A stretch of 64,000 nt of DNA from Mobula hypostoma (taxonomy: Eukaryota): the NCBI RefSeq assembly GCF_963921235.1, contig NC_086097.1, positions 68,388,001 to 68,452,000 of the forward strand, in the 5' to 3' direction. The notes under the pieces are model-generated. The model was not told the DNA's origin. It did no database searches and worked only from the letters and a program-made list of their open reading frames with translations. Position numbers and translations under genes: made by a program. Every line of letters begins with the position of its first letter. Position 1 is the first letter of the stretch. Positions 5,266 through 63,480 of the stretch are shown here, in pieces.

Positions 5266-5947
5266 TAGTTGCTTCCTTTTTTGAATAATCTTCAACTATT
5301 ACAAAGCACACTAGCATAATCTTTCAGGTATAGTTTTGGACATGTTGTGTCAGATCTGCTCAATAGAAAGGGTAGTCACGGACAATAAAAATTAGTTCTA
5401 AGACATCGCTGAAATTGCCTGCGAATTTCTACTTCTGTTTATATGATAGAGCTATGCAGTTGGTTTTTCATAATCAAAATTCCCTGGACAACAAAATTTA
5501 GCTCTGCAGTACTGCCTTAGCCCTGTGCGCAGATTTGAGTAAAGGGGCAGAGATAATTCATGAAGAACAACATAATTTGCTGTTTAATGTGTTGTTCTGC
5601 TCAAAAGAATGGAGAACAGAATGGAAGAAAAGTAGGTCAATCTGGAATTCGCTGAGGAATCTAGCATTAAGCTGCACCTTTGCTACTACTGAAGATCAAA
5701 AAGTCCTGGATCGTAGGATTGTAGGTGAAGTCTCATTTTGTTGTCCAGTTGCAATCAACAATTCCCTGTGGTTTGTAAAGTCAGTCCTCCCTTATTACTG
5801 ATGAGAGAAATTAATACTGCATGGTATTAATAATAATTCCTTTGACACAGTTGGTGACAGCAAACATAATAGATACGTACTATATCAGAGAAAATGCTGG
5901 GGACCAATATCATTTAAGTAACAGGTAAAACATCTAAATAGAATTGA

Positions 5948-6878
5948 CCATAAGAGCATTAGTCATAGGAGCAGAAATAAGCCATTCGACCCATTGAATC
6001 TGCCCCACCATCTCATCATGGCTGAACCATTTCCCTCTCAACCTTATTCTCCCATCTTTTCCCCATAAACTTTCATTCCCCGACCAACCAAAAACTTGAC
6101 AACCTCTGCGTTAAATGCACCCAGTGATTGGGCCTCCACAGCAGCCTGTGGCAAAGAATTCCACAGATTTACCACCCTCTGGCTAAAGAAATTCCTCCTC
6201 ATCTCTGTTCTAAATGGACCTTCTGCTATTTTAAGGCTGTGCCCTCTAGTCCTAGACTCTGCCATCAAAGGAAACATCCTATTCACATCCACAATATCGA
6301 GGCCAAACAACATTTGATGGGTTTCAATGAGATATCACCCTCATTCTTCTAAATTTCAGCAAGTACACACCCAGAACTTCAATCTTTTCTCATATGATAA
6401 CCCTTTCATTCCCAGAATCATCCTCTTGAAGCTCCTCTGAACCCTCTCCAACGTCAACACATCCTTTCTTAAATAACGGGCTCAAAACTGCTCACAATAC
6501 TCTGAGTGGGGCCTCACCAGTGCCTTATACAGCCTCAGCATCACATCCTTGCTTTTATACTCTCATCCTCTTGAAACGCATTCATCTTCCACACCACTGA
6601 CTCAGCACGCCAATTAACCGTTAGGGAAACCTGCACAAGGACTCCCAAATCCCTTTGCACCTCGTATTTTTGAATTTTCGCCCTGTTTAGAAAATATTCT
6701 ATGCCTTTATTCCTTCTACTAATGTTCATGACCATACATTGTATTCCAATTGCTATCTCTTTGCTTATCTCCTAAGTCCTTCTGCAGCCTCTCTGCTTCC
6801 TCAGTACTACCTGCCCCTCCACCTATCTTCGAATTGACTGCAAACTTGGCCACAAAGCCATTAATTTTATCGTCCAAA
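5948..6878 (-). mobile_element. 5'-truncated CR1-type LINE
   Basis: ORF 6044-6313 TRGHSLKI...FRTEMRRNFFSQRVVNLWNSLP; RDLGVLV motif in ORF 6541-6735. Confidence 0.9.
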
Positions 6879-7600
6879 AGGGAGCTGGATATGGGGTAAG
6901 AACAGAAGTGAAGGAAATGGAGATGCCAGTGAGGGGTACATCAGTAATAGCAGGAGGATTATATTTTTTGTAAAAGGAGGACATCTCAGATATCCTGGAA
7001 TGAAGGGCCACATTCCGAGAACACACATGGAAGAGATACTGTAGAGGAACTGAAGAAAAGGAATGACATCCAATGAATGACAGTGTGAAAGGAGGTTTAG
7101 TTTAGGTAGCTGTGGGAGTCAGTGGATAATGTGTCTCCTGAGATGAAAAAAGGGAAGGGAGATGTCAGAAATGGACCAAATGAATTGGAGGATAAGGTAG
7201 AAATTGGTAACAAAATTGATGAAATTTGTAAGTTCCCCACTGGTGCAGAAGACACCACCGATGCAGTCATCAATGTACTGGAGAAGGATTTGGGAGTGGT
7301 GTCTGAGCAGACTTGGGATAGAAACTGCTTCAGGTAGCTGGTATATCTGGACCCATGCACATGCAAATGGCTTCACAGTTGATAAGGAGAAAGTGAGAGG
7401 AGTCAAAAGGGGGGTTGTTAGGTAAGCACACATTCTTCCAGGAAGAAGAGGGTACTGGCAGAGAGAAAGTAGTTATCGGGGGACTACTTATAGAGTGCCT
7501 CCAGCATCTATAGTCTTTTGTCTCTATTCCTCCATAAAGAATTAATTTCTTGTTAAAATTCTGCATCATAGTGATATGGAATACTGCTTATTAAATTTCA
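6878..7600 (-). repeat. Inverted duplicate of 961-1690 (Penelope fragment plus flanking DNA)
   Basis: Colinear reverse-complement match; identical decayed translations (MHVHGSRYTSYLKQFLSQVCS; FLLINCEAICMCMGPDIPAT) in both copies. Confidence 0.9.
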
Positions 7601-19000: not shown

Positions 19001-19060
19001 CTCCAGTAGGCACCATTCGTTACTGCCCAAGTTCTTTAGACATCCCATGTACTCATTACA

Positions 19061-20453
19061 TGAGACCATAAGACCATAAAATATAGGAGCAGAATTGGGA
19101 CATTTGGCCTATAGGTTCTGTTCCGCCATTTCATCACGGCTGATCCAATTTTCCTTCCAGCCCCAATCTCCTGCCTTCTCCCCCTATCCCTTCATGCCCT
19201 GACTAATCAAGAATCTATCAACTTCTGCCTTAAATAAACATAAAGACTTGGCCTGTATAGCTGCATGTGGCAAAGAATTCCACAGATTGACCATTCTCTG
19301 ACTAAAAGAATTCCTCCTAATCTCCATTCTAAAAGGATACCCCTCTATTCTGAGGCTTTGTTCTCTGGTTTTAGGTTTTCTCACCATAGGAAACATCCTT
19401 TCCACATCCACTCTATTAAGGCCTGTCACCATTCAAAGGTTTCAATAAGGTCACCCCTCATTGTTTGGAATTACAGTGAATACAGGCCCAGAGCCATCAA
19501 ACACTCTTCAAATGACAAGCCATTCAATCGTGGAATCATTTTCGTAAACCTCCTTTCAACCCTCTCCTGTTTCAGCACATCCTTTCTTAGATAATGGGTG
19601 GCTTCATCAAAGGTTTATAAAATTTCAACATTACGTCCTTGCTTTTATATTGTAGTCCTCTTGAAATGAATACTGACATTGTATTTGCCTTCCTCACTAA
19701 AGACTCAACCTGCAATTTAACCTTTAGGGAATCCTGCACAAGGACTCCCAAGGCCCTTTGTGCTTCAGTTTTTTGTTCTTTCTCTCTGTTTATAAAATTG
19801 TCTTTCTTCTACCGGTGAAAGAACATACAGTTCCTGTCGCTGTATTCCATCTGCCACTTCTTTGCCCATTCTTTTAATCTGTCTAGGTCTTTCAGTAGCC
19901 TCTATACTTCCTCAAACTACCTGTCCCTCCACCTATCTTCATATTGTCTGCAAACTTTGCAACAAAGCCATCACTTCCATCATCCTAATTATTGGTATAT
20001 AATGTAAAAAGAATCGGTCCCAACACTGACCACAGTGGAACACCACTAGTCACTGTCAGCGAGACAGAAATGCTCCCTTTATTCCCAATCTTTGCCTCCT
20101 GCCAACCATCCACTGCTTTATCCATGCTAGAATCTTTCCTGTAATACCATGGGTTCTTAGCTTGTTAAGCAGCCTCATGTGTGGCACCTTGTCAAAGGTC
20201 TTCTGAAAATCCAAGTACACGAGATCCAACAACTCTCCTTTTTCTATTTCTTCAAATAATTGCAACAGATTTGTCAGGGCAGGATTTTCCCTTGAGGAAA
20301 TTATGCTGACTATGGCCTATTTTATCATGTGCCTCCAAGTGCCCTGCGACCTCACCCTTAATGATTGACTCCAACATCTTCCCAACCACTGAGATCAGAC
20401 TAACTGGCCTATAGTTTCCTTTCTTCTGCCACTCTCCCTTCCTAAAGAGTGGA
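19061..20453 (-). mobile_element. CR1-type LINE, decayed
   Basis: NYRPVSLISVVGKMLE, VYLDFQKTFDKVPH, SFSQRMVNLWNSLP; (accataag)n tail at 19061-19085. Confidence 0.92.
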
Positions 20454-29189: not shown

Positions 29190-29985
29190 TAGAAATCCGA
29201 AGACAGAATCAGAACCAGGTTTATCATTAACTTACAACATGATGTGAAATTTGTTGTTTTGCAGCAGCAGTACAACAGTAAGACATGAAAATTACAGTAA
29301 ATTACAAAATAAGCAAATAGTGCAATAAAAAGGAATGATAAGGTTGTATTCGTGGGTTCATTGACCACTCCAAAATTTGACAGCAATGTGGAAAGAAATT
29401 GTTCCTGAAATGTTAAGTGTGGGTCTTCAGACTCCTGTACCACCTCCCCAGTGGTAGTAATGAGAAAGGGCATGCCTCAGACAATGAGGAACCTTAGTGA
29501 TGGATGTTTTTTATGCATGTTTTTTAAAATCTATTCAATACAGTATATGTAATTGATTTACTTGTTTATTTATTATTATTATTTATTTCATTTTTTTTTT
29601 CTCTCTGCTATATTATGTATTGCATTGAACTGCTGCTGCTAAGTTAGCAAATTTCACGTCACGTGCCAGTGATAATAAACCTGATTCTGATTCTTATTCT
29701 GCTTTCTTGAGGCATTGCTCTTGAAGATGTCCTCAATGGTGGGAAGGTTTGTGTCGCGATGGGGCTGGCAGAGCCGACAGCCTTCTGCAGCCTTCATACC
29801 AGCTGCAATGCAACCAGTCAGAATACTCCCTTTTGAAATATGCAAGAGTCTTTGGTGACATACCAAATCTTCTCAAACTCCTAATGAAGTATAGCCACTG
29901 GTGTGCCTTCTTGGTGATAGCATCAATGTGCAGGGCCCAGGAAAGATCCTCTGAGATGTTGATGTCCAGAATCAAGCTCACTGCC
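29190..29985 (-). mobile_element. Rex1/Babar LINE fragment containing a nested opposite-strand Rex1 3' end (~29510-29700)
   Basis: ISEDLSWALHIDAITKKAHQWLYFIRSLRRFGMSPKTL; nested piece ends ataataaacctgattctgattc and matches 47090-47250. Confidence 0.85.
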
Positions 29986-31744: not shown

Positions 31745-32915
31745 AGACCCTAGCAAGACATCAGGCCTGATGGTGAATCTGGCAGGGTACTGAAAGGTTG
31801 TGCAAACCAACTGTCTACAATGTTGAAGGACATCTTCAATCTCTCACTGCTGCAGTCAGAGGCTCCCACCTGCTTCAAAAGAGCATCAATCATATCAGTT
31901 CCCAAGAAGTATAGGGCGAGCTGCCTCAATACTATTATCCGGTACCACTCATATCTATTGTGAATAAGTTCTTTGAGAGGTTGATTATGGCTAGAATTAA
32001 TACCTATCTGAGCAAGGACCTAGGCCCACTGCAATTTGCCTATCACCATAACTGGCCTACAGCAGATGCAATATCATTGACTCTCCAGTCAGCCTTGGTC
32101 TACCTGGACAACAGCAATATCTACGTCAGGCTTCTGATTTTTGATTACAGCTCGGCATTCAACACCATCATCCCATTAGCAATAATCAAAAATGCTTCAG
32201 AATGTGGGCTTCTATATCCACTGATCAGGAGATCAGTCAATGATCAGTAATAACATCTCCACCTCACTGACAATAAACACAGGCACACCTCAAGGATATG
32301 TGCTTATCCCACTGCCCTACTCTCTCTATAGCCATGACTGTGTGGCTCGGCACAGCAATCACATAGTAGGCACCCCGGCAGCTCTACTTCATTAGGAGAT
32401 TAAGGAGATTTGGTTTGCCACCAAAGACTCTTGCAAATTTCTACAGATGTGCTGTGCAGAGTAATCTGACTAATTGCATCACCATGTGGTTCAGAGGTTC
32501 CAACACATGGGATCATGAGAGATTTGTAGATTCAGTCAGCTCCAACATGGGCATAAGCCTTCCCTCACTGGAGACGTTTTCAAAAGGTAGTGCCCCAAAA
32601 AGGTGACATCCATCATTAAGGACCATCATTATCTGGAATATGTCATCTTCTCATTATTACCATGGGGGGTGGGGTGAGGGAGGTTCAGGAGTCTAAAACT
32701 GCACACTAAACATTTTACTAACAGCTTTTTCCCCTCTGCCATCAGATTTCTAATGATCCATGAAACCAAAAACACAACCACAGTATTCCTCTTTTACACT
32801 GCTTACTTATTGGTTATAGTAATCATAACATTTAATGCCTTGCACTGTACTGCTGCCACAAAGCAACAAATTTCAGGACATACATCAGAGATAATAACCT
32901 TGATTCTGATTCAGA
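31745..32915 (+). mobile_element. Rex1/Babar LINE, internally deleted
   Basis: PLQFAY...TADAIS...YVRLLIFDYSSAFNTIIP; tail gattctgattc. Confidence 0.9.
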
Positions 32916-35239: not shown

Positions 35240-36262
35240 GGACTTGATGTTTCAATCCCGATGGTAAGTCGGCACTCTCGATGTTGGCAGTGGGCTTGGA
35301 GTGGTGACAAGGAAGGAGGGTAGATACGTCATTGGGGTCATCAGGTGGGCACTCTCCTTCTTTGACGTTTCATTGATAAGCCTACAACGTCTTCAGAGGG
35401 CTCAACAGTGCTATCTGGTGTCCCAGATACACCCCCCTCAGTTCCATACCCTCCTGTCTTCATCTTGCAGCCCAGTTGTTGTCTTTCCTTTTAATCCAAA
35501 TCCAATTGCTGCTTTCTTCTGCTGCATTTGAGAAGGACTTGATTGCTTGTTGGAGGGAGTGACCCCTCACCCCCATCTTCTTCAATAAACTGGTTGTAGA
35601 TGTAGCAACGAATCCCCTGCATCCCACTTCTAGAGGGAAAATCTTAGTCTTGCAGCCATTCTGAGCAGCTTCAGTTGCCAGTTCAGAGTACTTGGTCTTT
35701 TTCCTCTCGTAAGCTTCTTCGACACCATCTTCCCATGGTACTGTCAATTCCACAATATATGCCAGCTTGGCTGTTGTTGACCACAGGACCATGTCTGGCC
35801 GGAGTGTTGTAACCACAATGTCTGGGGGACACACAAGCCTTTTTTCCAAGTCCACATCCATTTTCCAATCCCGAGCAACCTGCAGAATGCTTACATCTTT
35901 TGATGTTATATGGTGCTCTAGAGGTTGGCCTGCTGGTACAAATCATGTGATGTGGACATTTCCTGCCGATGTTTGTGGGAGAGCATTTGTGGTGATTCGC
36001 CTCTGTTCCAAGATTGATGCCAGCTGTCTGAGAACTTGGTTATGCCGCCAAATGTACCGCCCCTGGGTGAGGCTCGTGGCGCATCCTGTTAAGATGTGCC
36101 TTAACATCTGATCCAGTGATCCAGGTGCTTGACAAAGAAAGCAAGCGGGGTCTTCCCCCCACCACTGGTTCAGGTTCTGGGGTGTGGGTAGGAGGTCGTA
36201 AGTGGCTCTGATGACAAAACTTAGCCGAGATCCCTCCATCTCCCAGATGTCACGCCAGCTAA
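35240..36262 (-). mobile_element. R2-superfamily non-LTR element 3' part with restriction-like endonuclease (Hero-like), inserted into a CR1 fragment
   Basis: CCHC knuckle CFLC..LRHILTGC, WRHNQVL, RPDMVLWS..IVELTVPWE..AYERKKTKY..PLEVGCRGF; flanked by the halves of a CR1 tail (gccatctgtggt at ~35220, gaattccacagatt at ~36268). Confidence 0.85.
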
Positions 36263-37229
36263 GTAACGAATTCCACAGATTTACCACCCTCTGGCTAAAG
36301 AAATTTCTCCCCATCTCTACTCTGATTCTCAAGATGAGGAACTTGACTATCTATCTTAAAGGAGCTACCATTGAAGGTTCACTGGGAAAATGCTGTTTTG
36401 TTTTATGGGAAAATGGTATGATTCTGCATTATTAAAGTAGCAGATGATAGGGCATTGCCAAAGACGTTGGCAATTTTTAAAATATCTCACTTGGGGCAAA
36501 AGAATCCCAAACAGGTTCAATATCATTGACATAGATCATGAAATTTGTTGTTTTCGCAACAAGAGTGCAATACATGAAAAATTGCGATAGGTAACATTGA
36601 GAATTATTGTAGTTCTACTGAGACTAATGGGACTTGAGCTCCAATCTTCTTTTCCAGTATGGATGGAAATGGACTTTGCATGACCTGTGACCTCATTAGG
36701 TGTACACATGTACAAGTGAGATGAGTTACCTGTCAGGTGAGATAAAGTGGAGTACACTTGAGAAAGCCTGGTCCAATTTTGTAATTGACACAATTATACC
36801 CAGAAGTGATTGCTACTGTGAACAATCCAGAATAAAATCAACACTGGATGGCAGAGAGTTGAGAAAGCAGAGGCTATACAATTTAAATTCTCGGCTTATT
36901 GCTCTTCTCTTCTGCTTGTCTTTCATGAACATTGTCTGTTTCTTTCTCACCACTCCTTTGTTTAACTCTATTATTTTCCTTTTTTGTCTGTAAGAGGTGG
37001 TATAACATGTGATGGTGAGATGAGCAAGATCTTAAAATTCAAGCACTTGATCTGGATATTAGAAATTGCAGTTATGTAATGAAAGAAAAATAACATAAAG
37101 AAAACTTTAATTCACTTTTGCATAATTTGTGCTATAAAGATAATATAGTGCCACTTACTGACCTGAAACTGTAATTACATTGTGAGTACTAGCAGTTTAG
37201 ATGGTATTCTCTCGCTAGAAATACATTGA

Positions 37230-37963
37230 CATGGAAGTGTACCAGTTCACAGAAATGGAGGGAGTTCGGATGGAAAAACTTGATAAGATATTTTATTACA
37301 CTTTCTCAGAAATCCCGTCATGATGGTAACCTCCCTGATTGCTGGAAAAATTGTGGAAATCAGAATGCAAACCATTATCATATTTTCTGGGACTGTCCCG
37401 TTATCAAAAACTATTGGAGTGGGATACACAATGCCCTACAACACATCTTTAATATGAAATACCCTTAGAAAGTAAGACCATATATTTTGGGTATATACCT
37501 CAAGAATGGTTGAAAAGAGATAAATATTAAATGAATATACTGCTGGTCGCTGGTAAAAAGACTCTTACCAGGAAATGGTTATCACAGGAGAGCCCAACTT
37601 TAAATGCATGGATTGAAATTACAATGGACATTTACAAAATGGAGAAGATAACAGCATCCGTTAATCATAAGTTGGAACAATTTGATTCATACCGGGAAAA
37701 ATGGTTTAACTACATACCACCTCATAGGCCTGATTTTATTCTCACAAATCAATGAATATGTTGTAAAAAAAAGATCACTCCCTACTTGTACATAGTTTTC
37801 TCCTTTTGCTTGTTCTTTCTTTCCTCTCTTTTCTGTAAGTGTATACCTCAGATAAATATTATGTAGAGATTTGTGGCATATATATGTGCAATATCTGAAA
37901 TACATCTTATGGAAATGTTTGTTTGATGATGAGCTTCAATAAAAAATAAATTACAAAAAAAAA
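37230..37963 (+). mobile_element. 5'-truncated L1-clade LINE with poly(A) tail and 13-bp TSD
   Basis: CWKNCG...HIFWDCP zinc knuckle; AATAAA plus A-tail; agaaatacattga duplicated at 37217-37229 and 37964-37976. Confidence 0.9.
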
Positions 37964-46924: not shown

Positions 46925-47250
46925 GTGCTATCCTTTTCTCACTATTACCATCAGGCAGGAGGTACAGAAGCCTGAAGACACACACTCAGCGATTCAGGAA
47001 CGGCTTCTTCCTCGCTGCCATCCGATTCCTAAATGGACATTGAACCTGTGAACATTACCTCACTTTTTTAATATATATTATTTCTGTTTTTGTACGATTT
47101 TTAAATCTATTCAATATACGTATACTGTAATTTATTTATTATTAAAAAAACATTTTCTTCTTCTTCTATATTATGTATTGTATTGAACTGCTGCTGCTAA
47201 ATTAACAGATTTCACGGCACATGCCGGTGATAATAAACTTGAGTCTGATT
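46925..47250 (+). mobile_element. Rex1/Babar 3' end
   Basis: ccatcaggcaggaggtacagaagcctgaagacacacactcagcgattcaggaac (LPSGRRYRSLKTHTQRFRN); tail ggtgataataaactt. Confidence 0.85.
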
Positions 47251-47471
47251 CCACTGTGCTGTTTATAACATCTAATAATTTATGTACTTGTTTCTCCTAG
47301 ATCACTCTATAGCTCCATGCCATAAAGATTGTTATATTCTAAGTAAGAAGTGTTCTCCAGAACTTTTTTTTCACCACTGTTATACATCACAATTAACACT
47401 GAAATTCACTTTCTAATTATAGATCTATTTCATCAATATATAAAACTTTGTGGACAAGCTAGCGTACGTTA

Positions 47472-48320
47472 TGAAGATAGGTGAAGGGGTAGGTAGTGTT
47501 GAGGAAACAGGGAGTCTGCAGAAGGTCTTAGATTGGGAGAATGAGCAAAGAAATAGCAGATGGAATATAGTGTAGGGAAGTATATGGTCATACATTTTAG
47601 TAGAAGAAATAAAGATGTCGTCTACTGTCTAAATGGGGAGGAAATTCAAAAGTTAGGGATGCAAAGGGACTTGGGAGACCTCTTTCAGGATTTCCTCAAA
47701 ATTAACTTGGAGTATGAGTCAGTGGTAAGGAAGGCAAATGCAATGTCAACATTCATTTCAAGAGGACTAAAATATAAGAGCAAGGATGTTATGCTGATGC
47801 ATTGCTCAGACCACACTTGGAGTATTGTGAGCAGTTTCGGGCCTTTTATCTAAAAAAAAATGTGCTGGCATTGGAGAGGGATCAGAGGAGGTTCACAAGA
47901 AGGATTCCGGGAACGAAAGGGTTAATTTGATGGCTCTGGGCCCGTTGTCACTGAACTTTAGATGAATCTCACTGAAATCTATCAAATATTGAAAGGCCAA
48001 GACAGAGTGGATGTGGAGTGGACATTTCCTATAGTGGGAGAGGCTAGGACTAGAGACTACAGCCTCAGAATAGAGGGATATCCATTTAGAACAGAGACGA
48101 GGAGGTTTCTTTAACCAGAAGGAATAGAATCTGTGGAATTCATTGCCACAGATGGCTGTGGAGGCCAAGTCATTGGGTTTATCTAGTCTGAGCATCAAAG
48201 ATTATAGGGAGAAAGCAGGAGAATGGGTCATGAATCATAATAAATCAGCCATGATGAAATGGCAATGTAGATTTGATGGGCCGAATAGCCTAATTTTACT
48301 CCTATGTCTTATGGCCTTAT
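47472..48320 (+). mobile_element. 5'-truncated CR1-type LINE
   Basis: QRDLG..VVRKANAM..FISRGLKYKSKDV; tail cctatgtcttatggccttat. Confidence 0.9.
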
Positions 48321-49630: not shown

Positions 49631-50262
49631 TTCCTTAAAAATCGTTAATTGCTTGAGGAAACACATCACTATGAATTCATACTAATATGCAGAATGGATG
49701 CTGAGTAATATGCTAAATAATCAAATTCAGACAATTTAGATGCAATTGGGAATTTTGCCCAACTATTCAGAAGCAACAGTTAAAACCAGGGGAGATTATC
49801 CACACTGAGACTTTGAAGTAGAAACTTCATAAAAACAGTAATAAATGCAACTATTATAAATTATGGTGTTTCTCATTTAAAATCTGACATGATTTCAAAT
49901 CATATTCTATAAGAACAAATCATGTTCTTACTACTAAAATATTGATGATTCCTTTTTCAAAATCACTCACAATGATTCAATTAGTTCTTCAATTAATTAT
50001 GACAGGTAAGTGTACATTGAATGAAATGCCTTTGTAAAATTGTAAGGCAGTTTCAGTGCAATTTCTTGATGCAAAATCATTTCCAAGCAATGACCACTGG
50101 TTAAAAGATATCCACATGGCATTAACAAAAGATTCCATTAATTTTATATATCATGTTTTTGTTAATAGGATAACTGTCAAATATGTCAAAATCAAACAAT
50201 AGGTCTGTAGTACAGCAAAGTACGTATCAGTATAGCTGTTCTAATCTGAACTCAAGTCATAC

Positions 50263-50507
50263 CTTTCACAGATGTATTAGGAGGGGGACCCTCCATCCTT
50301 AAATTCCAGGGAGGGTCACCTAGGTTCGCAAAGTCCCTCATTTTCAGATAACTAATGGTAAGACGAATTATTGATGCCTTATCTAACTGGCTTGTGATGG
50401 CTGCTGGGAGTGGCAGTAGTTTTGCCAATTCGTAGAACTCAAAGTTTTCTTTTCCTCGGCGAGATCGGGCTGCATCTCGAGATTTCTCCTTCCGCAGGGC
50501 TTGTAAA
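50263..50507 (-). CDS. NPAS3: Internal coding exon (bHLH domain) of neuronal PAS domain protein 3; rest of window is intronic
   Basis: Minus strand: pyrimidine tract plus AG acceptor (ctttctctctcag|, AG at 50509-50508) and donor AAG|gtatga (GT at 50262-50261). 245 nt = 1 nt + 81 codons + 1 nt, no stops: [81 protein letters not shown]. Matches the recalled NPAS3 bHLH; the [19 protein letters not shown] tail separates it from SIM1/2, HIF and NPAS1. Confidence 0.95.
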
Positions 50508-53401
50508 CTGAGAGAGAAAGATAAACCAAATTCAATGCAATATTAAAAGAGCAAATTTTTTAAAAATTAACAGCATTAAAATTGTTTGTTTATTATTTAA
50601 ACCAGAAATACAGTTTGATTATTTTAGTATGTCATAAGACATTATCAAATCATTTTTATTGAGAACTATTCTCTAAATACACAAGATTTTCTAGAGGAAA
50701 CACATTTTTTCAAAAGAGGGAAAATGTGTCATTGATCTACAAAATATAATGCAAATTTAATAGGACACGTAGATTTGAAGCTACAATTTCAGATGCTGCA
50801 TTTTATAATCTTAGCAAAGGGACAACCTTGATTGGAACTTGTTCCTTTACCACAAATAGGTAGAAAACTTGAATAAACTTCTCATCGATATTTTCAGTTA
50901 TTTCCTAAAATATTTCAAAATCCTGTTCATTCTGTGGAAAAGGCATGATAAAATAAATTTTAGATTGTATTTAAACATTTAAAAAGGTAAATTCTTTGAA
51001 GCATGGCTTTGAAGGAGTAGACAGGTGTGAAAAGAATACAAAAAAGATGTTCCTAATAGTCGTAGTATAATAATGCACTTATTTGTGATTCATCCAACAT
51101 ATTACTGAATCTTTCTGCTCAGCTATAAAATATTCACAATTACATGAAATAATAGTAATTGATTTAATCATTTACATGTTAATTGAAATATTAGAAACTA
51201 AAGGACAATTAGCCCTCAAAGTCATTCTTGTTTCACTTTGAATAAATGCATAAACTCAGAATATTGATTGAAACAGGAACTTTAATACATCTTATATTGC
51301 TACTCTTCCTGAAAACTAAAGGAAAGTCTTATCTGTATTTTTATATATAGCTATGTTTATGCTCCATAGTTTATCTTTTTTATCTTTTATATCTGATAAA
51401 AGAAATAAATTATGCTGAACTTCTCAATGTTATGAAAGTAATTAAATAAAATTGTCTGATCTTATCTACGTAATCCATTTAAACAAAATTTAAATAGTTG
51501 TTCGTTTTTTTACTGACATAAAAGCATGACAACTGAAGACTATAAGGTATAAGTAGGGATCTCAAAACTGCACAGAATATTATTCTTTTTAGAACCTTTG
51601 ATATTTTATTTTCCCATGTAAGAAACATTTGAAATAAAATTCTTTTGAATTCTAAATACAATTTCCAATGAGAAATATTAAGTCAAAATGTCTAATATTA
51701 TTAATTTATTTTACTCAATTTATAGTTGCGGCCAAAAAAATTATCCTAGAGTTGGTCACTCATAGTATAAGAGATTACAGAGCAGTATAGTGTATACTGA
51801 ATAAAATTACAGTCTTCAAGTTGTATGTCTTCAGTTATAACAGCTTTATTTGTCTATTATATTAATGTTCAAAGTATAACTAAAAATGAAAAGTAAGAAA
51901 GGACAACACCATACTTCGCAAAGAAAAAAAAAGGCACTGAATTCAAGATTGCAAAATCATTTTAAGACTCTTAATGTTCAGACATCATTCAAATGAGCCT
52001 TGAAACCTATTGCGACTACTTAATATTCTAACTTTCTTCCTTAAATATTCTCAGAAATAACTTATGGATTAAAAAATAATGAAACTGAGTTCAATAAATT
52101 GAAATTCCTTTGAACTGAAGTTAAGTTGTGAGTAATGTCATTTATCTTTGTATATTTATCAAAATAGGATAATAAATACACAAAGTTGACAAAATAAATA
52201 ACCCAAACAACTATAAGACACATTTGTGAAGAAATACATCATTGGTAGCTTGCGTTAGGGAGCACCTGTATTCCACTTCTGCAATTTGATCCTAATGATT
52301 CAATATTTCAGAAATGAAGTAGAACCCATATGCATTACTGTATGTATTTTATTTAGTATACATTTACCAACTGTAAATATTATTATTAATACATTTCATT
52401 CATGCAATGTTCCATAATTTAAAAGTTTCTATTTAAAATATTTTTAAATTTTTTATTACTATCATTTTCTGTTTTAGATTATTTGAGTAATGCATCAGAA
52501 AAAAAGCATCAATAATATACAAACAATAAACGTTATCCAAGTAAAATGATTGCTAGGAAGCAAAGGGTGACACAAACCAAAATGTAATTTGTTCCAGAAA
52601 CTCAGCTTGAATTGAGTTGAAAAATTAGAGTTATGAAATGATTTTTGACCTTCATTTTATCCGTGGAGTGAAACATTCTACCACAATAACCAGTTGGATT
52701 AACAGTTATTTTGATGCTAATCTCAAAGAAACCATTTGAGCGACTGTAAACTAAACTGCACGAAATATTCTTTGACACTGTCAAGGAGAAAAAAACTTTG
52801 ACATTCCAGGTTTCTATTTACTTGTTCAAGCAATGGTTGTATATTGAACTTCAGAGAATGAAAAAAAATTATCAATTAAAGTGGTTGAAATGGCTGCAAA
52901 TTATCATTTAAGAATGGAGTAATTGCTTTCATCAAAGGAAGAATAGCTCACCAGAACACATATGTCACTTTAGATTAGTGTTCTCTCTCTTGAAGCCATG
53001 GACGGCACAGCTGATATAAGACTAAATGCCAAGACCAATCAATTGCTTTTGTAGCTCTGCCCTGAGCAGCAGTAAAATAGTCCATTTTCTGGGATCTATG
53101 CTTCATTATTGTAAATGGTATCACCTTGGTAACATAATTCCATTCTTCACAAATTCTGTTTTAAGTACATTGTTGCAACAATGCATTTGAAAACAATATT
53201 GCTACCAGCTTAACACAAATATTAAATGTAATCAGCTGACAGGCGAGTTTAGATCTAGTCCAGAATTCGTACTCTCACTAATTACTTTCCCATATGCACT
53301 AGTTCTTCTAGTTCATTGAATCTTTGAAAATTGCCTCCTTAACCCATTCCCATTAAATGGCAAAGCATTCCAACTTCCCTTTCTGAGGCAGAAGCAGTGT
53401 A

Positions 53402-53734
53402 CAGTCGGCCCTCCTTATCCACGGGTTCCGCATGCGCGGATTCAACCAACTGCGGATTGGGAAAACCGGGAAGTTCTCTCTCCAGCACTCATTGTTCGAG
53501 CATTTTTTCTTATCATTATTCCCTAAACAATACAGTATAACAACTATTTACATAGCATTTACATTGTATTAGGTATTATAAGTAATCTAGAGATAATTTA
53601 AAGTATACGGGAGGATGTGCGTACCTTATATGCAAATACTACGCCATTTTATATAATGGACTTGAGCATCCACATTTTTTGATATCCGTGGGGGGTCCTG
53701 GAACCAAGCCCCGGTGGATAAGGAGGGTCGACTG
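53402..53734. mobile_element. Tc1/mariner-Tigger MITE, MER2-like, 333 bp
   Basis: 21-bp TIRs matching 20/21 (cagtcggccctccttatccac); TA on the left, CA on the right; internal cattattccctaaacaatacagtataacaactatttacatagcatttacattgtattaggtattataagtaatctagag matches recalled MER2. Confidence 0.88.
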
Positions 53735-54139
53735 CAAATGGAATTCAGTATGCATAATCCTCAAAGTACATTCGGGAAAGCTCTTTATCTCAATGTACAG
53801 CACACCTGACAAGACTGATGAGAGTACTTAGTTGTAGTGAAGAAGCCTTGGTAGGTGAAGGGATACACATAAGAAAACATTTTGATAACTGATTATTATT
53901 CAATTAGATTCAAGTTAATTATAAAACAAAACCAAAATAGGCCAAGGGTTAAAATTTACTATACAGATAAGCAAAAGAGGACTAGAAATAATAACATAGG
54001 GGTAAATCAACATCAGAGCAATGGGAAATCTTCACAGTCAAACAGCCCGGAAAATGGCATTTTAGTTCACTATATGCATACTGACCATTAAAATCATTAG
54101 GAGCATTATACTAATCCAGTTTTGAGTTGTAGAGCTATA

Positions 54140-54450
54140 CAGCAGCATAGTGGTTTTAGTGCCAGCAATCCGGGTTCACTTTCTGCTTTTGCCTGCAAGG
54201 AGTTTGTACGTTCTCGCCATGACCACATGAGTTTCCTCAGGGTGCTTTGGTTTCCTCCCACATACCAACAACATATGGTTTAGTAAGTCGTGGATATTCT
54301 ATGTTGGCTACAGAAGCATGGTGACACTTGTGGATGCCCCCAACACATCCTCCGACGTCATTGATCATTGATGCAGATGACACATTTCACTGTACGCTTC
54401 AATGTTTCGATGCACATGAGACAAACAAAGCTCATCTTTAATCTTGATCT
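54140..54450 (+). mobile_element. tRNA-derived V-SINE with Rex1-like tail
   Basis: B-box-like gggttcactt; V-domain ggagtttgtacgttctc...gggtgctttggtttcctcccaca. Confidence 0.75.
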
Positions 54451-54459
54451 CTTTAATCA

Positions 54460-56820
54460 ATCAGCTTGAAAACTACGCCCTTCGGTACAACAGATCCTTG
54501 ACAGCTAAGTTGCCGAACTGAACTCGTCCCATTTTCCTTCTTTCAGCCGACTTCCCTCTGTACCTTTCCTATTCACATACCTATTCAAATGTATTTTAAA
54601 TGTTCAATTGTACCAGCCTCTGCCACTTCCACTGGTATCCCACTCCATATAGACTACTCACTGTGTGAAAAAATGGTCCTTCAGCAGCATTTTAAATCTT
54701 TCCCCTCTCACTTTAAATCTATGCCCTATAGTTTTTGGACTCTGTTACCACATGGAAGATTCTATGGCTACTCACATTATTAATGTCTCTCATGATTTTA
54801 TAAACCTCAGTTATGTCACTACTCAGCTTCCTGCAGTCCAAAGAAGAATAAGACCATCAGACCGTAAGATATAGGAGCAGAATTAGGCCATTTGCCCATT
54901 GAGTCCGCTCCACCATCTCATCACGGCAGATCCAATTTTCCTCTCAGTACCAAACTCCCGCCTTCTCCCTGTATCCCTTCATGCCCTGACCAGTCAAGTA
55001 TCTATCAAGCTCTGCCTTAAATATACATAAAGACATGGCCTACATGGCTGTGGCAAAGAATTCCACAGATTCACCACTCTCTGGCTAAAGAAATTCCTCG
55101 TCATCTCCATTCTAAAAGAACACCGCTTTATTCTGAGGCTGTGTCCTATGGTTCATAGACCATAAGACATAGGTGCAGAATTAGGCCATTCAGCCCATCA
55201 AGTCTGCTCCATCATTCTACCATGGCTGATTCCGGATCCCACTCAACTCCATACACCAGCCTTCTCGCCATATCCTTTGATGCCCAGACCAATCAGGAAA
55301 CTATCAACTTTCCCCTTAAATATGCCCATGGACTTGTCCTGCACTGCAGTCTGTGGCAGAGCATTTCACAGATTCACTACTCTCTGGCTAAAATATTCCG
55401 CCTTACCTCTGTTCTAAAAGGTCTGCACTCAATTTTAAGGCTGTGCATCCAGTTCTGGATTCCTCTACCAAAGGAAACATCCTCTCCATATCCACCCTAT
55501 CTAGTCCTTTCAACATTCGGTAGGTTTCAATGATATCCCCACACCTTCTTCAAAATTCCAGTGAGTACAGACCCAAAGGTGTCAAACACTCCTCATATGT
55601 TAACCCCTTCATTCCCAGAATCATTTTCGTGAACCTTCTCTGGACTCTCTCCAATGACAATACCTCCTTTCTGAGATATGAGTCCCAAAACTGTTGACAA
55701 TTCCCCAAGTGCAACCTGACTAGTGTCTTATAAACCCTCAGCATTATCTCCTTGCTTTTACATTTATTCCCCTTGAAATAAATGCCAACATTGCATTTGC
55801 CTTCTTTACCACAGACACAACCCATAAATTAACCTTCTAGGATGTTTGAAGCTTCTCCCCATTTAGATAATAGTCCGCGCTATTGTTCCTTCCACCAAAA
55901 TGCATCATCATACATTTCCCAACACTGAATTCTATCTGCCACTTTTTTGCCCATTCTTCCAATTTGTCTAAGTCCAGCTGCAATTGCATTGCTTCCTCAG
56001 CACTACCTACCCTCCACCTATCTTTGTATCATCTACAAACTTTGCCACAAAGCCTTCAATTCCATTATCTAAATCAATGGCAAACAATGTGAAAAGCAGC
56101 AGTCTCAATACTGACTATTGTGGAACACCACTAGTCAGCGGTAGCCAATCAGAAAAGGCCCCTATAAATCCTGGAATCATTTTCATGAACCTTCTTTGAA
56201 CCCTCTCCAATTTCAGCACATCCTTTCTTCAATATAGGGCCCAAAACTGCTCACAATATTCCAAGTGAGGCCTCACCGTGCTTTACAAAGTCTCAACATT
56301 ACATCATTGCTTTTATATTCTAGTCCTCCTGAAATGAATGCTAACCTGACCACATTTGCCTTCCTGACCACAGACTCAACCTGCAAATTAACCTTTAGGG
56401 AATCCTTCACAAGGACTCCCAAGTCCCTCTACACCTCAGTTTTCTTTGATTTTCTTTCTATTTAGAAAACAGTCTACCCTTTCATTTCTTCTACGAAAGT
56501 GCATGACTGTAACTTCTCAACACTATATTCCATCTGCCATTTCTTTGCTCATTCTCCTAATCTGTCAAAGTCCTTCTGTGGTCTCTCTACTTCCTCAAAT
56601 CTACATGCCTCTCTCCCTATCTTTACAGAATCTGCAAACTTTGCAACAAAACTATCAATTCCATTATCCAAATCATTGGCATATAACATAAAACAAATCA
56701 GTCCCAACACAGACCTCCGTGCCAACCAGAAAAGGCTCCCTTTATTTCCACTTTCTTCCTCCTGCCAATCAGCTATTGCTTTATCCATGCTAGAATCTTT
56801 CCTGTAATACAATGGGCTTG
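54460..56820 (-). mobile_element. Cluster of three CR1-type fragments (54460-54845; 54850-55153 resuming at ~56165-56820; nested ~55155-56160)
   Basis: Two separate accataag-type tails at ~54850-54875 and ~55158-55172; LERVQRRFTKMILGMKGL; NDLDNGIDSFVAKFAD. Confidence 0.85.
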
Positions 56821-57740: not shown

Positions 57741-59494
57741 GTTTGTAAAACTGCAAGGAGAGTGGTTGTGTGAGGAAATGTCTCTGTTAGGGTAAAATCA
57801 GTGTGACTTTGGAGATGAAGGTTTTCTGATCAATAAGAGAACAGGAAAATTTAAAGAGTAGGAAAAATAAACAAAATTGTAGGAGTAACAATGCAGAGCA
57901 GAAGGCATACCCAGTCGGTCAGAAGGGAAAAATTTCACAAAAAGGGGAAAAGAATTAACAAACAAATACTATATCAGAGAGCAGAAAGTCAGGCAGTTTA
58001 GATATTTCACAAAGCAAGCAAGATGCTTGCCTGTTTTGGTTGAACTTAAAAACTGGAAGGTCATGATGGAATTATTTAGAACCCTATTTCAACACAATAA
58101 CTGGAGTTCCACACAGAGATTATGTGAGACTTTGCTAGAATGAACAATTTGGAACTAGATCCTTTAGACAACAGATCAAAAACAAGAGGCCACATAGTTA
58201 AGGTATTTTACCAAAGGACTGTTGTCCAATTGAGAAATAGTTTCATCCTCTTCCAAACTATAGAGAATGCAAAAGGCTGAAAACACAACCACCAGACTCA
58301 GGGTCAAATTCTATCCTTCTAGTATAAGACTATTAAACAGACCTCTTGTATGATAGAATGGACTATTTACCTCACAGCCTACCTTGTCATGGCCTGCACT
58401 TACTGTTGCATGCACTACACTTGTTCGGTAACTGTAAAACTACATCCTTCATTTTGTTGGCGTTTCTCTTCTGTACTAACTAAATAAACTGATGGGTTGA
58501 AATTATTAGTACGGATAACATGCAAAACAAAGGTTTTCACTGTACCTTGGTACATGTAACAAAATAATAATTACTATAATAATAATAATAACAACAACAA
58601 ATAGCAACTATTATTATCAAAATAAAACAAGCCATTTTCCAGGGTGACTGTTTAAGCCCACTATGGTTTTGTCTAGCTTTAGATCTTTAATTTACTGAAT
58701 CGGATGAAAATAGGGTAGGAAAGCAGAGACAACCAAACAAAACACACCTTGACACACACACCTTCCGTACATGTATGATTTGAAATCTTATGCTCATTCA
58801 TCAGTAAAGCTAAAACAATTAATTCAAACAGTACAACTATATTTGAAAGATATAAACATGAAATTTGGATTAGCTAAATGAAGAACATTAAACATAAAGA
58901 AAGGTGTAATAGAGCTAGTAGAATATATAGCAAAGCAGCAGGATACAACTGATGGTTGAAAATGAAACATATAAGTATTTGTGATATTAACAAGCAAACA
59001 AAATAGATCATAGTGTCATAAAGGGAAACTTTTGACAGAATTAAGAAAATCTGCCAAACAGAGCTCAATAGAAATATATAACGAAGGCAGAAAACACTTG
59101 CGCTATATCTATATTAACATATTATTTTGGCATAATACCTTAGTCTGAAACTAATGTGGAAAATTTACAAAAACAAATAAGAAATGAAATGACAAATTTT
59201 AGAAAGCACTACGTACGCTCAAACATAATTAGATTAACACCACCTAGGACTGAAGGAGAAAGGAATAACAGATATAAAAAAATTCACATAACAGTCAGAT
59301 AAAACTTCTAAGGATATATTTTCATCAATGAAAATAGGATTCAGCACTCCATGCGAGCATATGTAATTCTGATAAGAACTAAACTTAAATAAAACCACAA
59401 CCCAGAAAAATGATGAAATGATCACTACAGAAGAAAAAGTTAACCAATGGAACAGCATGACCCTCTGTGGAAGACAATCCCACAATCTGAAAAG

Positions 59495-59820
59495 ACTAGA
59501 TGTTGACAAGGATGTTTCCCATGCTGAGGGAGTCTAAAACCAGAGGACACAGCTTCAGAATAGAAGGGCATCCTTTTACAATGGAAATAAAGAGGAATTT
59601 CTTCGCCAAAGAGTGGTGGATCTGTGGAAGGCGGCTGCAGAGGCCAAATCATTGGGTATATTTAAGGCAGAGGTTGATACATTCTTGATTAGTCAGAGCA
59701 TTTAGGGATATGGGGAGAAGGCAGAAGATTGGGCTGAGAGGGAAAATAGATCAGCCATGATGAAATGGCAGAGCAGGCTCAAAGGGGAAAATGGCTTAAT
59801 TCTGCTCCTATATCTTATAG
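59495..59820 (+). mobile_element. CR1-type 3' end nested in the R4/Dong element
   Basis: RMFPMLRESKTRGHSFRIEGHPFTMEIKRNFF; tail ctgctcctatatcttat. Confidence 0.88.
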
Positions 59821-60647
59821 GAAGTATCCAACCTCTGACCCAGAATTACAGACCTCTTCCCAGAAACAGAGGAGTTCTTTGTGACTATACAGAACTGGGT
59901 AGATAACACACACAAAAAAATTATCAATATGCACAATAAAAGACCAACAAATTCAAAATGATAAATGTAGAAAATGCCAAGGGAAACCAGAACCAATTCA
60001 ACACATTACAGGATCCTGCAGCAGTTTAACACAATCTGATTACTTACACAAGTACAATCAAGTGGCAAATATCATTCACCAAAATCTTGCTTTCAAATAC
60101 AAGCTCATAAAAGACACCATTCTATAAATACAGGCCTGATCCAGTTTTAGAGTCAGAGTCCCACAAATTATATTACGACCAATCCATTATAACAGATAGG
60201 ACAATCCATAATAACTGTCCATATATAATTGTCATGGTCCGGATCGGGGTCCCTTTAAATTTACCTTGTTTATGTTACGATCCGGACTGTCGATTCCCTG
60301 TTTTCCCGTGTCCCTCGACTTTGGTGATGAAAGGCAATTAACACTCGGCTGAACCGGTAGTTTATAGTTTCCGGCTTTCAGCCGTTCGGTGCGGGAGCAT
60401 CTGCAAAGTCTGCAAAGTCACAGCGTGCCAATGTCATCCGGCCGGAGCAAGCCTTGTCTCCACCTGAAGCGAGTGCCGGTAATTCGCCTTTCCTCACCAG
60501 AGCAACCCTGTCCAGTTACCTCGCCAAAGCGAGCCTGCAAAGTTTCCTCTTCAAGGTGGGTCCGTCAGTTAACCCACCGGAGAGAATCAAGAGCCGCTGT
60601 CTACTGTTCCCGGGCCGAGTCGAGAGCTCGGCACTACCCAGAGGTTC

Positions 60648-60838
60648 CAAGCACCATGTCCTGGCTCCGGCGGTATCCAAGTACCATGTCCATGTCCTGT
60701 CTCTGGCGGCATCCAAGTCCTGGCCCTGGCGGTGTTCAAGTACCATGTCAAGTCCTGGTCCTGGCGGCGTTCAAGTACCATGTCAAGTCCTGGCCCCGGC
60801 GGCTTCCCAGTTCTGAGTCATGTCCTGGCCCTGGCGGT
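60648..60838 (+). repeat. Irregular ~30-35-bp tandem repeat inside the LTR
   Basis: Unit caagtaccatgtcaagtcctggYcctggcggcgtt; copies at 60737 and 60772 are 35 bp apart. Confidence 0.85.
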
Positions 60839-60975
60839 CTGTGATTTCTGTCCTACCCCCTTGTCTGAAACCCTTCTCTGCCCCCTCGCCTCTAGCCCTT
60901 GTCTGCAGCCCCCGCCTGCACTTCGGTCTAGTTCCATCACCGGAACTCGATAGGTACTGTCTGGTGTTCATTCCT

Positions 60976-61191
60976 GTTGGTCTTGTCTTGTCCTCGCCTC
61001 CATGGGGGAAGTCAGGCCATCTTGCCGTTGCTCCGCGGGGAGTCATGTCTTGTCTTGTCCTGTCCTCGCCTCCGTGGGGTAAGTCAGGCCATCTTGCCGT
61101 TGCCCCGCGGGAAGTCGTGTCTTGTCTTGTCTTGTCCTTGCCTCCGTGGGGTAAGTCAGGCCGTCTTGTCGTTGCCCCACAGGGGATCATG
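60976..61191 (+). repeat. 72-bp tandem repeat x3 inside the LTR
   Basis: Anchor aagtcaggcc at 61009, 61081 and 61153. Confidence 0.92.
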
Positions 61192-61416
61192 AGTCCCAGC
61201 CCTATGTCCTGTACCCAAGGAGGGGTCCCAGCTCTCTGTTCTGTGTGTGAGTCCTAGCCCTATGTCCTGTACCCAAGGAGGGGTCCCGGCTCTCTGTTCT
61301 GTGTGCGAGTCCCGGCCCTATGTCCTGTACCCAAGGAGGGGTCCCGGCTCTCTGTTCTGTGTGCGAGTCCCGGCCCTATGTCCTGTACCCAAGGAGGGGT
61401 CCCGACTCTGTGTTCT
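61191..61416 (+). repeat. 58-bp tandem repeat x~3.9 inside the LTR
   Basis: Units start (gagtcc) at 61191, 61249, 61307 and 61365. Confidence 0.93.
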
Positions 61417-63194
61417 AAGTATGTGTCCATGGTTCCATGTACCTGCTCTCCTGAGACCGAGGCTCTGTTTTCCATGTTCCTCCTCTCCCTAGCCCATGTC
61501 ATGTCCATGCCTGGTTCTGGGGTCCGAGCCCGAGGCAAGACCCAGGTACTGGGTCCTTGCCCAGTCTTGGGCTCGGAGTCCATACCCTAGCCTCTTCATG
61601 TCTCCTCTAGTTCTGGGAGCCGATTCCAAGTCCTAGCCCAGACCCTTGGTCCCAGCCTAGTCATAGTACTGAGTCCTTATCCTGTTCGCTATTCCTGCTT
61701 CTGTCTTGCTCTCCTGGTATTGTACAATAAACTAAACCTAAGAAACCTCACAAGATGTGTCTTGCATTTGGGTCCACCCTTGCTCCCAAGACCCCTGCCA
61801 TTGTGACAATAATATTACAGGATAAACAAGCAAGAACTACTCACTTAAGAGAGATATCCATTCTAAACACACATAACATACAGAAATCAGTAACTGAAAA
61901 ACATCAGAAATATACAGAATTAAAGGAAACTGAAAGACTATGGAGCACGAATAGAGTATACATTGTCCCTATAGTAATATCTACAACAGGTACCATTCCA
62001 AAGTCACTCCTCAATAGCATTAAACAATTAGGCATACCCAACAGTATTTATGTAAATCGCCAAAAAGCCACAATACTAAACACTGCTAGAGTAGTCTGAA
62101 AGTTCCTAGCAATTGAGAAATGACTGTGCTTAGCTCTGCCCGTACCTCAGGTTTTACAAAATTGAGCTGAGAAAAAATAAAAATATAATAGTAAACCAAA
62201 TGGGTGATGTTTATATGGAATTATTACTCATTGCCTAAAACATTGGAAGAAACAAAAACATTATATTTCAAAGAGAGTATATGTCTCTCTTTCAGCCACT
62301 ATCTTCAGGAAGTTTGAATGTGCGATTAGAGTGAATACTTTATGATGTGATAATCAAATTTAGGATAATAAACGGGTGCTGCATAAATGAGGTATTGCTG
62401 ACAATAATTTCATGTGTTATCTTGGCCTGATCTCTCGGATTTCTAAAACTGGGATCTTTTTATCTCCCTTATTCTCATGAGGTCAAATTGTTTTGAAGGT
62501 AATATTGGCTGGATGCAAGCATCATTTCAGTTTTATCAACTAAATTTTGCAAACATCACCTCTTCTTCCCTATTCTTACATACCTGTGCTGTTTGTCCTC
62601 TGGTCATTCTCCCAATTATACTTCAGGAGAATACCACCAAATGGATTTATTTGGTAGAAATAGCAAAGTCGCCTTTAGATGGGACATTAAATCCAGAGTA
62701 GATGTTCAGCTATCATTAAATCAGCATTAACCTGCCTTCTCTGCCCGTAGCTAATGATTTTCCCAGCAGGACTTCTGCCACAATTTTGCCATATCAGCTA
62801 ACAACAGAAAGTAAGTGAGGACCAGATCTACACATCAAATCTCTGACAAACTATGTTGGACCAGAATATGTAATCTCTTTCCAACTCCATCTGAGAAAAG
62901 GCAGACTTGAATTGTCCTGCATGATTTTTTCCACTGAGCTGCAATTCTCAGGTCTACTGTAAAGTTTCATTCACTCCACCTGGTGTTCTACCCCTCTACT
63001 ACCGCTAAACAGCAACCATAAAGTTGCACAAGTTCTTCCTCATTTTCAAAAGCAACATGTGTTCAGGAATCCTCTTCCTCACAAAGCACCAACTTCAGTT
63101 TTGAGATTTTAAAAAATGCCAAGTAATTTCATCCCTATGGATTGAAACAATCAATTTCAAAGACAACTTGCTCTGCCAAGTAAGTTAGTAAACA

Positions 63195-63480
63195 AGAGTT
63201 AAGATAAAGATTAGTACATTGGTACACACATTTGTCATAAATGTGTCATTTGCGTCAACAATCAACACAGCCTGAGGATGTGCTGAAGGCAGCCACAAGT
63301 GTCGCCATGCATCTAGTGCAAACACAGCATACCCACAGTTTACTAATCTGTATTGTCTTTGCAATGTGGCAGGAAAGCAGAGCGCCCGGAGGAGACCATA
63401 CAAACTGCTTACAGACACAGCATGAATTGAACCTCAAATACTTACACTGAAAAGCATTATGCTAACTGCTATACTATTGC
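63195..63480 (-). mobile_element. tRNA-derived V-SINE, same family as 54140-54450
   Basis: Reverse strand tgtaagcagtttgtatggtctcctccgggcgctctgctttcctgccacattgcaaagac; shared body catggcgacacttgtggctgcc. Confidence 0.7.

What the first reader, a model, noticed from the sequence alone, without database searches (positions are those of the whole stretch)
53400..53736. Tigger MITE apparently near-identical to mammalian MER2: horizontal-transfer candidate
Seen: 333-bp element with 20/21 TIRs and a TA site. From memory of the human MER2 consensus, the non-coding interior (53513-53655, cattattccctaaacaatacagtataac...gcaaatactacgccattttatat) and the ggggggtcctggaacca end match almost base for base. 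MER2 is known as a eutherian-age repeat. Such identity in neutral DNA would not survive vertical descent from the jawed-vertebrate ancestor, so the same Tigger family probably invaded both lineages horizontally.
Basis: partly seen in the sequence, partly recalled or inferred. Interest (0 to 1): 0.7.

Follow-up and report, generated by a model that had tools for sequence, protein, structure and literature searches.

The report
MER2-like miniature transposon in elasmobranch intron
A small, well-preserved, dead cut-and-paste jumping element sits in an intron of a shark-or-ray gene and seems, from memory only, to match a repeat common in placental mammals, which would point to an old jump between very distant animals of a kind already reported, but that match could not be computed here.

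Summary
The structure is real. The element is 333 bp (53402-53734), non-coding, with 22/24 terminal inverted repeats; 0 of 20 shuffled windows gave such a pair. TA lies on the left but CA on the right, so the target duplication is imperfect. It is the only copy in the window.

It lies 2.9 kb upstream of the NPAS3 bHLH exon. That peptide matches exactly only shark, ray and tailed-frog proteins (13 of 120 listed). With fish-type retrotransposons nearby, the host is most likely an elasmobranch. Intact repeats and CpG o/e 0.94 argue against a typical human MER2 copy (median 18.5% diverged), so contamination is unlikely.

The key claim, near-identity to MER2, was not tested: no MER2 sequence or other copy was obtained.

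Best reading (0.7): a Tigger/pogo miniature element of the MER2 group whose lineage reached elasmobranchs and placental mammals horizontally. Tigger transfer between these groups is already claimed for other families (PMC9219625). Ten literature searches showed no MER2-specific report. This is a new member of a known kind.

The parts
53400..53401 (.). left TA, target-site duplication copy
53402..53425 (+). left terminal inverted repeat, 24 nt, starts CAG; presumed transposase binding and cut site (inferred)
   Evidence: 22/24 complementary to the right arm
53426..53511 (.). left subterminal segment, GC-rich and holding most CpGs. By recall only, about 53462-53500 is the one block that departs from MER2, a possible deletion junction or subfamily-specific block
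   Evidence: GC 0.53 over 53402-53511, 8 of 14 CpGs there; the MER2 comparison is recalled, not computed
53512..53661 (.).
   Evidence: GC 0.29, no reading frame; MER2 match untested
53662..53710 (.). right subterminal segment, GC-rich
   Evidence: GC 0.55 over 53662-53734
53711..53734 (-). right terminal inverted repeat, 24 nt
53735..53736 (.). right flank reads CA: the expected second TA with one change (inferred)
50263..50507 (-). host gene context: NPAS3 bHLH exon; the element lies in the intron 5' of it
   Evidence: no upstream coding exon of 16 homologues found in the window

Best explanation
It is a dead miniature, non-autonomous DNA transposon of the pogo/Tigger type, in or next to the MER2 group, inserted at a TA in an intron of NPAS3 in an elasmobranch. 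How it worked: a Tigger transposase made elsewhere in the genome bound the two 24-bp arms, cut the element out and pasted it at a TA, which was duplicated. It codes for nothing and has since taken a few mutations, one of them in the right TA. Shown: arms, TA on one side, no coding capacity, intronic place, non-mammalian host, good preservation. Inferred from established Tc1/mariner-pogo biology: the cut-and-paste mechanism and dependence on a partner transposase. Recalled only: close likeness to MER2 over both ends and the AT-rich interior. Inferred from that recall: the same Tigger lineage entered elasmobranchs and early placental mammals separately, directly or through a third host, rather than being inherited for about 430 million years.
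For: Arms 22/24; 0 of 20 shuffles reach 21/24. Tigger elements have arms of about 20 bp (8-33) and TA duplications (PMC9219625), and nearly all arms in the table rows read start with CAG. Length 333 against 345 for MER2 (PMC1914374 supplement). Host: the exon peptide occurs exactly in 13 of 120 listed proteins, 9 from sharks and rays and 4 from the tailed frog. Leucine at the diagnostic site is found in 16 (those 13 plus Heterodontus twice and Callorhinchus) and glutamine in 102, which include all named mammal rows. A neighbouring retrotransposon frame has 24 of 120 listed relatives with an organism name: 22 ray-finned fish, 2 Vibrio, no mammal. MER2 is dated near the split of placental orders, with 8,377 human fragments at a median 18.5% divergence. 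Arms as good as 22/24 have probability 0.006 at that divergence and 0.04 at the 5th percentile, 13.7%, and CpG o/e is 0.94 against 0.27 for the window. Vertical descent predicts 44-83% identity on assumed rates. Precedents for such transfers.
Against: The right target duplication is imperfect. No transposase domain was found in 261 frames of the window scanned against Pfam. The five chondrichthyan Tiggers listed in PMC9219625 have arms that share only about half their positions with this one, judged by eye, so no partner was identified. Sharks have the lowest mutation rate that paper found among vertebrates (PMC10587355), which narrows the margin. The host call rests on one residue plus repeat content. 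Transfers involving mammals are rare: 24 of at least 975 events involve mammals or birds (PMC7070016).
Confidence: 0.7

Rival explanations
1. A native elasmobranch Tigger miniature element that shares only family-wide ends with MER2; memory overstated the interior match, and no transfer involving mammals is needed.
For: No computed alignment exists. Tigger arms are alike across many animals. For MER6, the match to a turtle element was confined to the ends, at 17.6-31.6% divergence (PMC6887750). By my recall one block of about 40 bases differs from MER2.
Against: Recall places the closest match in the AT-rich interior, not only in the ends (untested). Length is within 12 bases of MER2.
Confidence: 0.14
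2. Vertical inheritance: the MER2 lineage existed in the jawed-vertebrate ancestor, stayed active in both lines, and looks similar because elasmobranch DNA evolves slowly and transposase-binding sequences are constrained.
For: Shark mutation rate of 7e-10 per generation. The slowest corner of the assumed grid gives 83% identity. Tigger is found in nearly all vertebrate classes.
Against: Eight of nine grid cells give 76% or less. MER2 is dated to the placental radiation. [quoted passage not shown] An AT-rich non-coding interior has no evident constraint.
Confidence: 0.09
3. Contamination or mis-assembly: a mammalian MER2 copy was built into the elasmobranch contig.
For: There is a single copy in the window, and junction-spanning reads were not examined.
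Against: The boundaries fall exactly at the arms with TA on one side. Arms of 22/24 have probability 0.006-0.04 for human-like decay, and CpGs are retained. The flanks are an NPAS3 intron with an elasmobranch-type exon and fish-type repeats.
Confidence: 0.03
4. An old insertion kept by selection as a regulatory element of NPAS3, which would explain its good preservation without a recent insertion.
For: It is intronic in a developmental transcription-factor gene, and CpG-rich: 7 of 574 sliding 333-bp windows reach o/e 0.9, one being the element.
Against: Intact arms and CpGs are what a young insertion or a slow-clock host shows. There is no evidence of conservation at the orthologous place. This reading would not explain likeness to a dispersed mammalian repeat.
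Confidence: 0.04

Closest known systems
MER2 / MER2B (human Repbase families, Mariner/Tc1 class in PMC5753468; RepeatMasker family MER2_type in PMC1914374)
   Same: Size (333 against 345 bp), short arms, TA site, no coding capacity. By recall only, close sequence likeness over both ends and the interior.
   Different: The host is an elasmobranch. It is far better preserved than the median human copy (18.5% diverged). By recall one internal block of about 40 bases differs. Sequence identity was not computed.
Autonomous Tigger elements of Carcharodon, Scyliorhinus, Chiloscyllium, Leucoraja and Amblyraja (PMC9219625, Table S1)
   Same: Same transposon family type, same host group, arms of 18-23 bp, TA sites in four of five; the paper claims Eutheria-Chondrichthyes transfer.
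   Different: They are 2.1-4.5 kb coding elements whose arms share only about half their positions with this one (by eye). The paper's transfer test used a 70% identity floor and coding elements, and did not concern MER2.
Mariner_Tbel and Mariner1_BT (PMC3517439); nMariner1_Lbo (PMC10162687)
   Same: Tc1/mariner-group elements shared between mammals and distant animals by horizontal transfer, one of them non-autonomous.
   Different: Those rest on consensus or multi-copy comparisons (over 95% and over 83% identity) and species surveys; here there is one copy and no computed identity.
MER6 (PMC6887750)
   Same: A mammalian Tigger-type miniature element with relatives in a non-mammal (turtle Mariner-2_CPB) and in fish SINEs.
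   Different: Likeness there is limited to ends or a captured SINE part and is 18-39% diverged; the authors leaned to vertical history.

Membership tests
pogo/Tigger miniature element (MITE) | short terminal inverted repeats (40 bp or less), Tigger arms typically starting CAG | tested here: met
   24-nt arms, 22/24, start CAG; definition
pogo/Tigger miniature element (MITE) | TA target-site duplication on both sides | tested here: inconclusive
   TA left, CA right
pogo/Tigger miniature element (MITE) | short and without coding capacity | tested here: met
   333 bp; longest stop-free stretch 56 codons
pogo/Tigger miniature element (MITE) | many dispersed copies of uniform size; empty orthologous sites | not testable with these tools
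   one copy in 64 kb; no whole genome is held for this window
pogo/Tigger miniature element (MITE) | an autonomous Tigger with the same ends in the genome | tested here: inconclusive
   no transposase domain in 261 frames of the window; no matching arms among five chondrichthyan rows; rest of the genome not searched
MER2 / MER2B | at least 80% identity over at least 80% of the consensus (rule recalled) | not testable with these tools
   no MER2 sequence was returned by any search; likeness is recalled
MER2 / MER2B | consensus length about 345 bp (MER2B 336 in one row, 345 in another) | tested here: inconclusive
   333 bp; compatible but not diagnostic
horizontally transferred transposon | element distance below host neutral or synonymous distance | not testable with these tools
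   only the expectation was computed: 44-83% identity under vertical descent on assumed rates
horizontally transferred transposon | patchy species distribution or a tree at odds with the species tree | not testable with these tools
   no species survey obtained; in PMC1914374 Table S5 MER2 rows were returned for 6 of 7 placental genomes, none for the sheets that by order are dog
horizontally transferred transposon | contamination excluded | tested here: inconclusive
   indirect evidence is against contamination; junction reads not examined

The most novel reading that the evidence does not exclude
MER2, one of the first-named human repeats and by my recall without a securely assigned full-length parent, is a horizontally acquired family with a better-preserved sister in sharks and rays. 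The two may be separate deletion products of one travelling Tigger (shared ends and interior, different junction near 53462-53500, by recall). The slow elasmobranch clock may have kept that parent transposase readable in this genome. Unchecked notes of MER2-like pieces in arthropod or other invertebrate genomes would then mark the wider route.
Probability: 0.45. Interest if true: 0.6.

Novelty: new member of a known kind. Interest (0 to 1): 0.4.

Why it matters
If the MER2 match holds, it gives a non-mammalian home for a placental-age repeat with thousands of human copies. It would be a cleaner test of mammal-elasmobranch transfer than the existing Tigger claim, because the shared sequence is non-coding and so not held by selection on a protein. 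The largest vertebrate survey read here required coding sequence (PMC7070016) and would miss such miniature elements. It could also lead to the missing parent transposase and date the invasion of early placentals. It would not change the general picture: Tc1/mariner and Tigger transfers into mammals are known.

Tried and rejected
Searches for other copies or for a MER2 sequence all led nowhere: Rfam over the window and the element (five chance-level hits with E 3.5-8.3), plasmids and phages by blastn, pattern scans of viral contigs, metagenome contigs and prokaryote genomes, motif search of paper texts and of the PMC9219625 supplement, and earlier scan notes by sequence and by six words. Locus L001 was rejected as chance: 17 bases only, 62% GC. 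No whole genome is held, so copy number was not measured. Pfam found no transposase remnant in the window, only reverse-transcriptase, zf-RVT and ALKBH8_N pieces and one weak WBP-1 hit. A second 21/24 inverted pair at 29204-29695 was rejected as a miniature transposon: no TA flanks, and its halves match separate repeat copies elsewhere. The published chondrichthyan Tiggers were rejected as the partner because their arms differ; only parts 5 and 6 of the table were read, so invertebrate and most reptile rows were not compared. An RNA gene reading has no Rfam support. Species distribution, junction reads and empty sites remain open.

Full report
Observation. The window holds a 333-bp element at 53402-53734 whose ends are inverted repeats, 22 of 24 bases complementary (20 of 21 at the tips). 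A window-wide scan found 2 pairs at 21/24 or better within 1.5 kb, and 0 of 20 Markov shuffles gave any. TA precedes the element and CA follows it, so the target duplication has one change. The ends are GC-rich (0.53, 0.55) and the interior AT-rich (0.29); no frame inside exceeds 56 codons. CpG o/e is 0.94 (14 sites) against 0.27 for the window; 7 of 574 sliding windows of equal size reach 0.9, one of them the element. There is no second copy in the 64 kb.

Host and context. An exon at 50263-50507 on the minus strand encodes the bHLH part of NPAS3. Among the 120 best listed of 816 relatives, the peptide occurs exactly in 13: 9 from Pristis, Hemitrygon, Hypanus, Mobula, Narcine, Chiloscyllium and Carcharodon, and 4 from the frog Ascaphus. 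102 carry glutamine where the window has leucine, among them all named mammal rows; 3 more chondrichthyan rows have leucine with another change, and 2 rows did not fit the pattern. No upstream coding exon of 16 homologues was found in the window, so the element lies in the intron 5' of this exon, 2.9 kb away. A retrotransposon frame at 35463-35942 has 334 relatives; of the 120 listed, 24 carry an organism name: 22 ray-finned fish and 2 Vibrio, no mammal. The host is therefore a non-mammalian aquatic vertebrate, most likely an elasmobranch. Ray against shark was not resolved by a tool; the SINE and LINE tails look ray-like to me by recall only.

What could not be tested. The central claim is near-identity to human MER2. 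No call produced a MER2 sequence or another copy: Rfam, plasmids and phages, viral contigs, metagenome contigs, prokaryote genomes, paper texts, one supplement and earlier scan notes by sequence were blank or gave chance matches. Most of these sources do not hold animal repeats, so the blanks are not evidence against. No whole genome is held, and species distribution and junction reads were not obtained.

What the literature fixes. MER2 is classed in the Mariner/Tc1 group (PMC5753468, passages). In PMC1914374 (passages and supplement rows) its consensus is 345 bp, it has 8,377 human fragments at a median 18.5% divergence (5th percentile 13.7%), it was active near the split of placental orders, and rows were returned for 6 of 7 genomes (none for the sheets that by order are dog). 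Tigger elements have arms near 20 bp and TA sites (PMC9219625, text parts 2-3 of 7; PMC7386202, passages). PMC9219625 already claims Tigger transfers between Eutheria and two sharks, with a 70% identity floor. The arms of its five chondrichthyan elements share only about half their positions with this one by eye (supplement parts 5-6 of 137 and a name search), so they are other families. Precedents for mammal-to-distant-animal transfer: PMC3517439 (part 1 of 3) and PMC10162687 (passages). PMC7070016 (passages) found 24 of at least 975 vertebrate events involving mammals or birds, and needed coding sequence. PMC6887750 (passages and part 2 of 5) is a cautionary case, where a mammalian miniature element matched a turtle element only at its ends. 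PMC3525145 and PMC3268980 (passages) and a shark-and-ray genome preprint (10.1101/2025.06.08.657570, term search; its supplements were not seen) added nothing on MER2 outside mammals. Ten searches showed no report of MER2 in a non-mammal. The library lacks subscription papers, Smit and Riggs 1996 and Pace and Feschotte 2007 were not read, and Dfam and Repbase entries could not be seen, so a database note may exist.

Contamination. If both arms had decayed like a median human copy, 22/24 would have probability 0.006; at the 5th percentile, 0.04 (this assumes perfect ancestral arms and independent sites). Retained CpGs, boundaries exactly at the arms, and native flanks point the same way. Two mismatches in 24 imply about 4% divergence per arm, with a wide interval of 0.5-13.5%. 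In a slow-clock host this does not by itself mean a recent insertion.

Vertical against horizontal. With a split of 430 million years (my assumption; cites over 450 for a similar ancestor), a 100-million-year-old mammalian consensus, bony-vertebrate rates of 0.5-2.2e-9 (top value) and elasmobranch rates of 0.07-0.7e-9 per year (assumed around the 7e-10 per generation of PMC10587355, passages), neutral identity would be 44-83%, and 76% or less in 8 of 9 cells. Transfer therefore needs about 85% or more over the interior, plus a patchy distribution. Recall suggests this is met; it is not shown.

Mechanism. Shown: arms, one intact TA, no coding capacity, intronic place. Inferred from known pogo/Tigger biology: a transposase supplied in trans bound the arms, excised the element and inserted it at TA. 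No such transposase remnant was found in 261 frames of the window (268 frames of 60 codons or more were listed, the exon frame was scanned, and frames overlapping the element were not sent). Inferred from recall: the element and MER2 descend from one Tigger lineage that entered both host groups horizontally, perhaps as separate deletion products with different junctions. I put this at 0.7. Rivals are a distinct native family with overstated likeness (0.14), vertical descent (0.09), exaptation (0.04) and contamination (0.03).

Earlier scan notes. Four unchecked notes describe MER2-like pieces in arthropod or other invertebrate genomes, and one mentions a dead Tigger elsewhere in this genome. 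They are leads for the survey and for the parent search, not support; two say the likeness could not be computed.

Verdict. The miniature transposon is real and well preserved, in an elasmobranch NPAS3 intron. MER2 membership is likely but untested, and horizontal transfer is plausible and of a known kind. Interest 0.4; 0.6 if the MER2 link and a recoverable parent are confirmed.

Noticed in passing
window 50263-50507 (-): NPAS3 bHLH exon, the only host coding exon found in the 64 kb; it carries leucine where mammals and most other listed vertebrates have glutamine, shared with chondrichthyans and the tailed frog.
   Followed up: yes
window 29204-29695: A 21/24 inverted pair 492 bp apart without TA flanks; its halves match other repeat copies at 32606-32912 and 47098-47251, next to an ALKBH8_N frame. 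It looks like two LINE tails in opposite orientation (label inferred).
   Followed up: partly
window 35463-36350 (-) and 37193-37465 (+): Non-LTR retrotransposon remnants with zf-RVT pieces; one frame is 76-82% identical to unnamed proteins and 40-78% to named ray-finned-fish proteins. Two close relatives are labelled Vibrio on short contigs, probably mislabelled host DNA. Itself a possible fish-elasmobranch transfer candidate.
   Followed up: partly
window 54231-54387 and 63239-63396: Two copies of a SINE-like repeat, 75% identical; it looks like a V-domain SINE by recall only.
   Followed up: no
window 5946-6878, 19060-20153, 47446-48320, 54848-56816, 59487-59818: An abundant repeat family of about 0.9 kb, 66-83% identical between copies, stacked in tandem at 54848-56816; probably LINE 3' ends.
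   Followed up: no
window 977-1690 and 6878-7589: Two 0.7-kb copies in opposite orientation, 86% identical.
   Followed up: no
window 60361-61430: GC- and CpG-rich stretch with internal tandem units and several overlapping open frames without Pfam hits; possibly a young repeat.
   Followed up: no
window 50001-52000: Very AT-rich (GC 0.30) intron segment between the exon and the element, with no self-matching repeat in the window.
   Followed up: no
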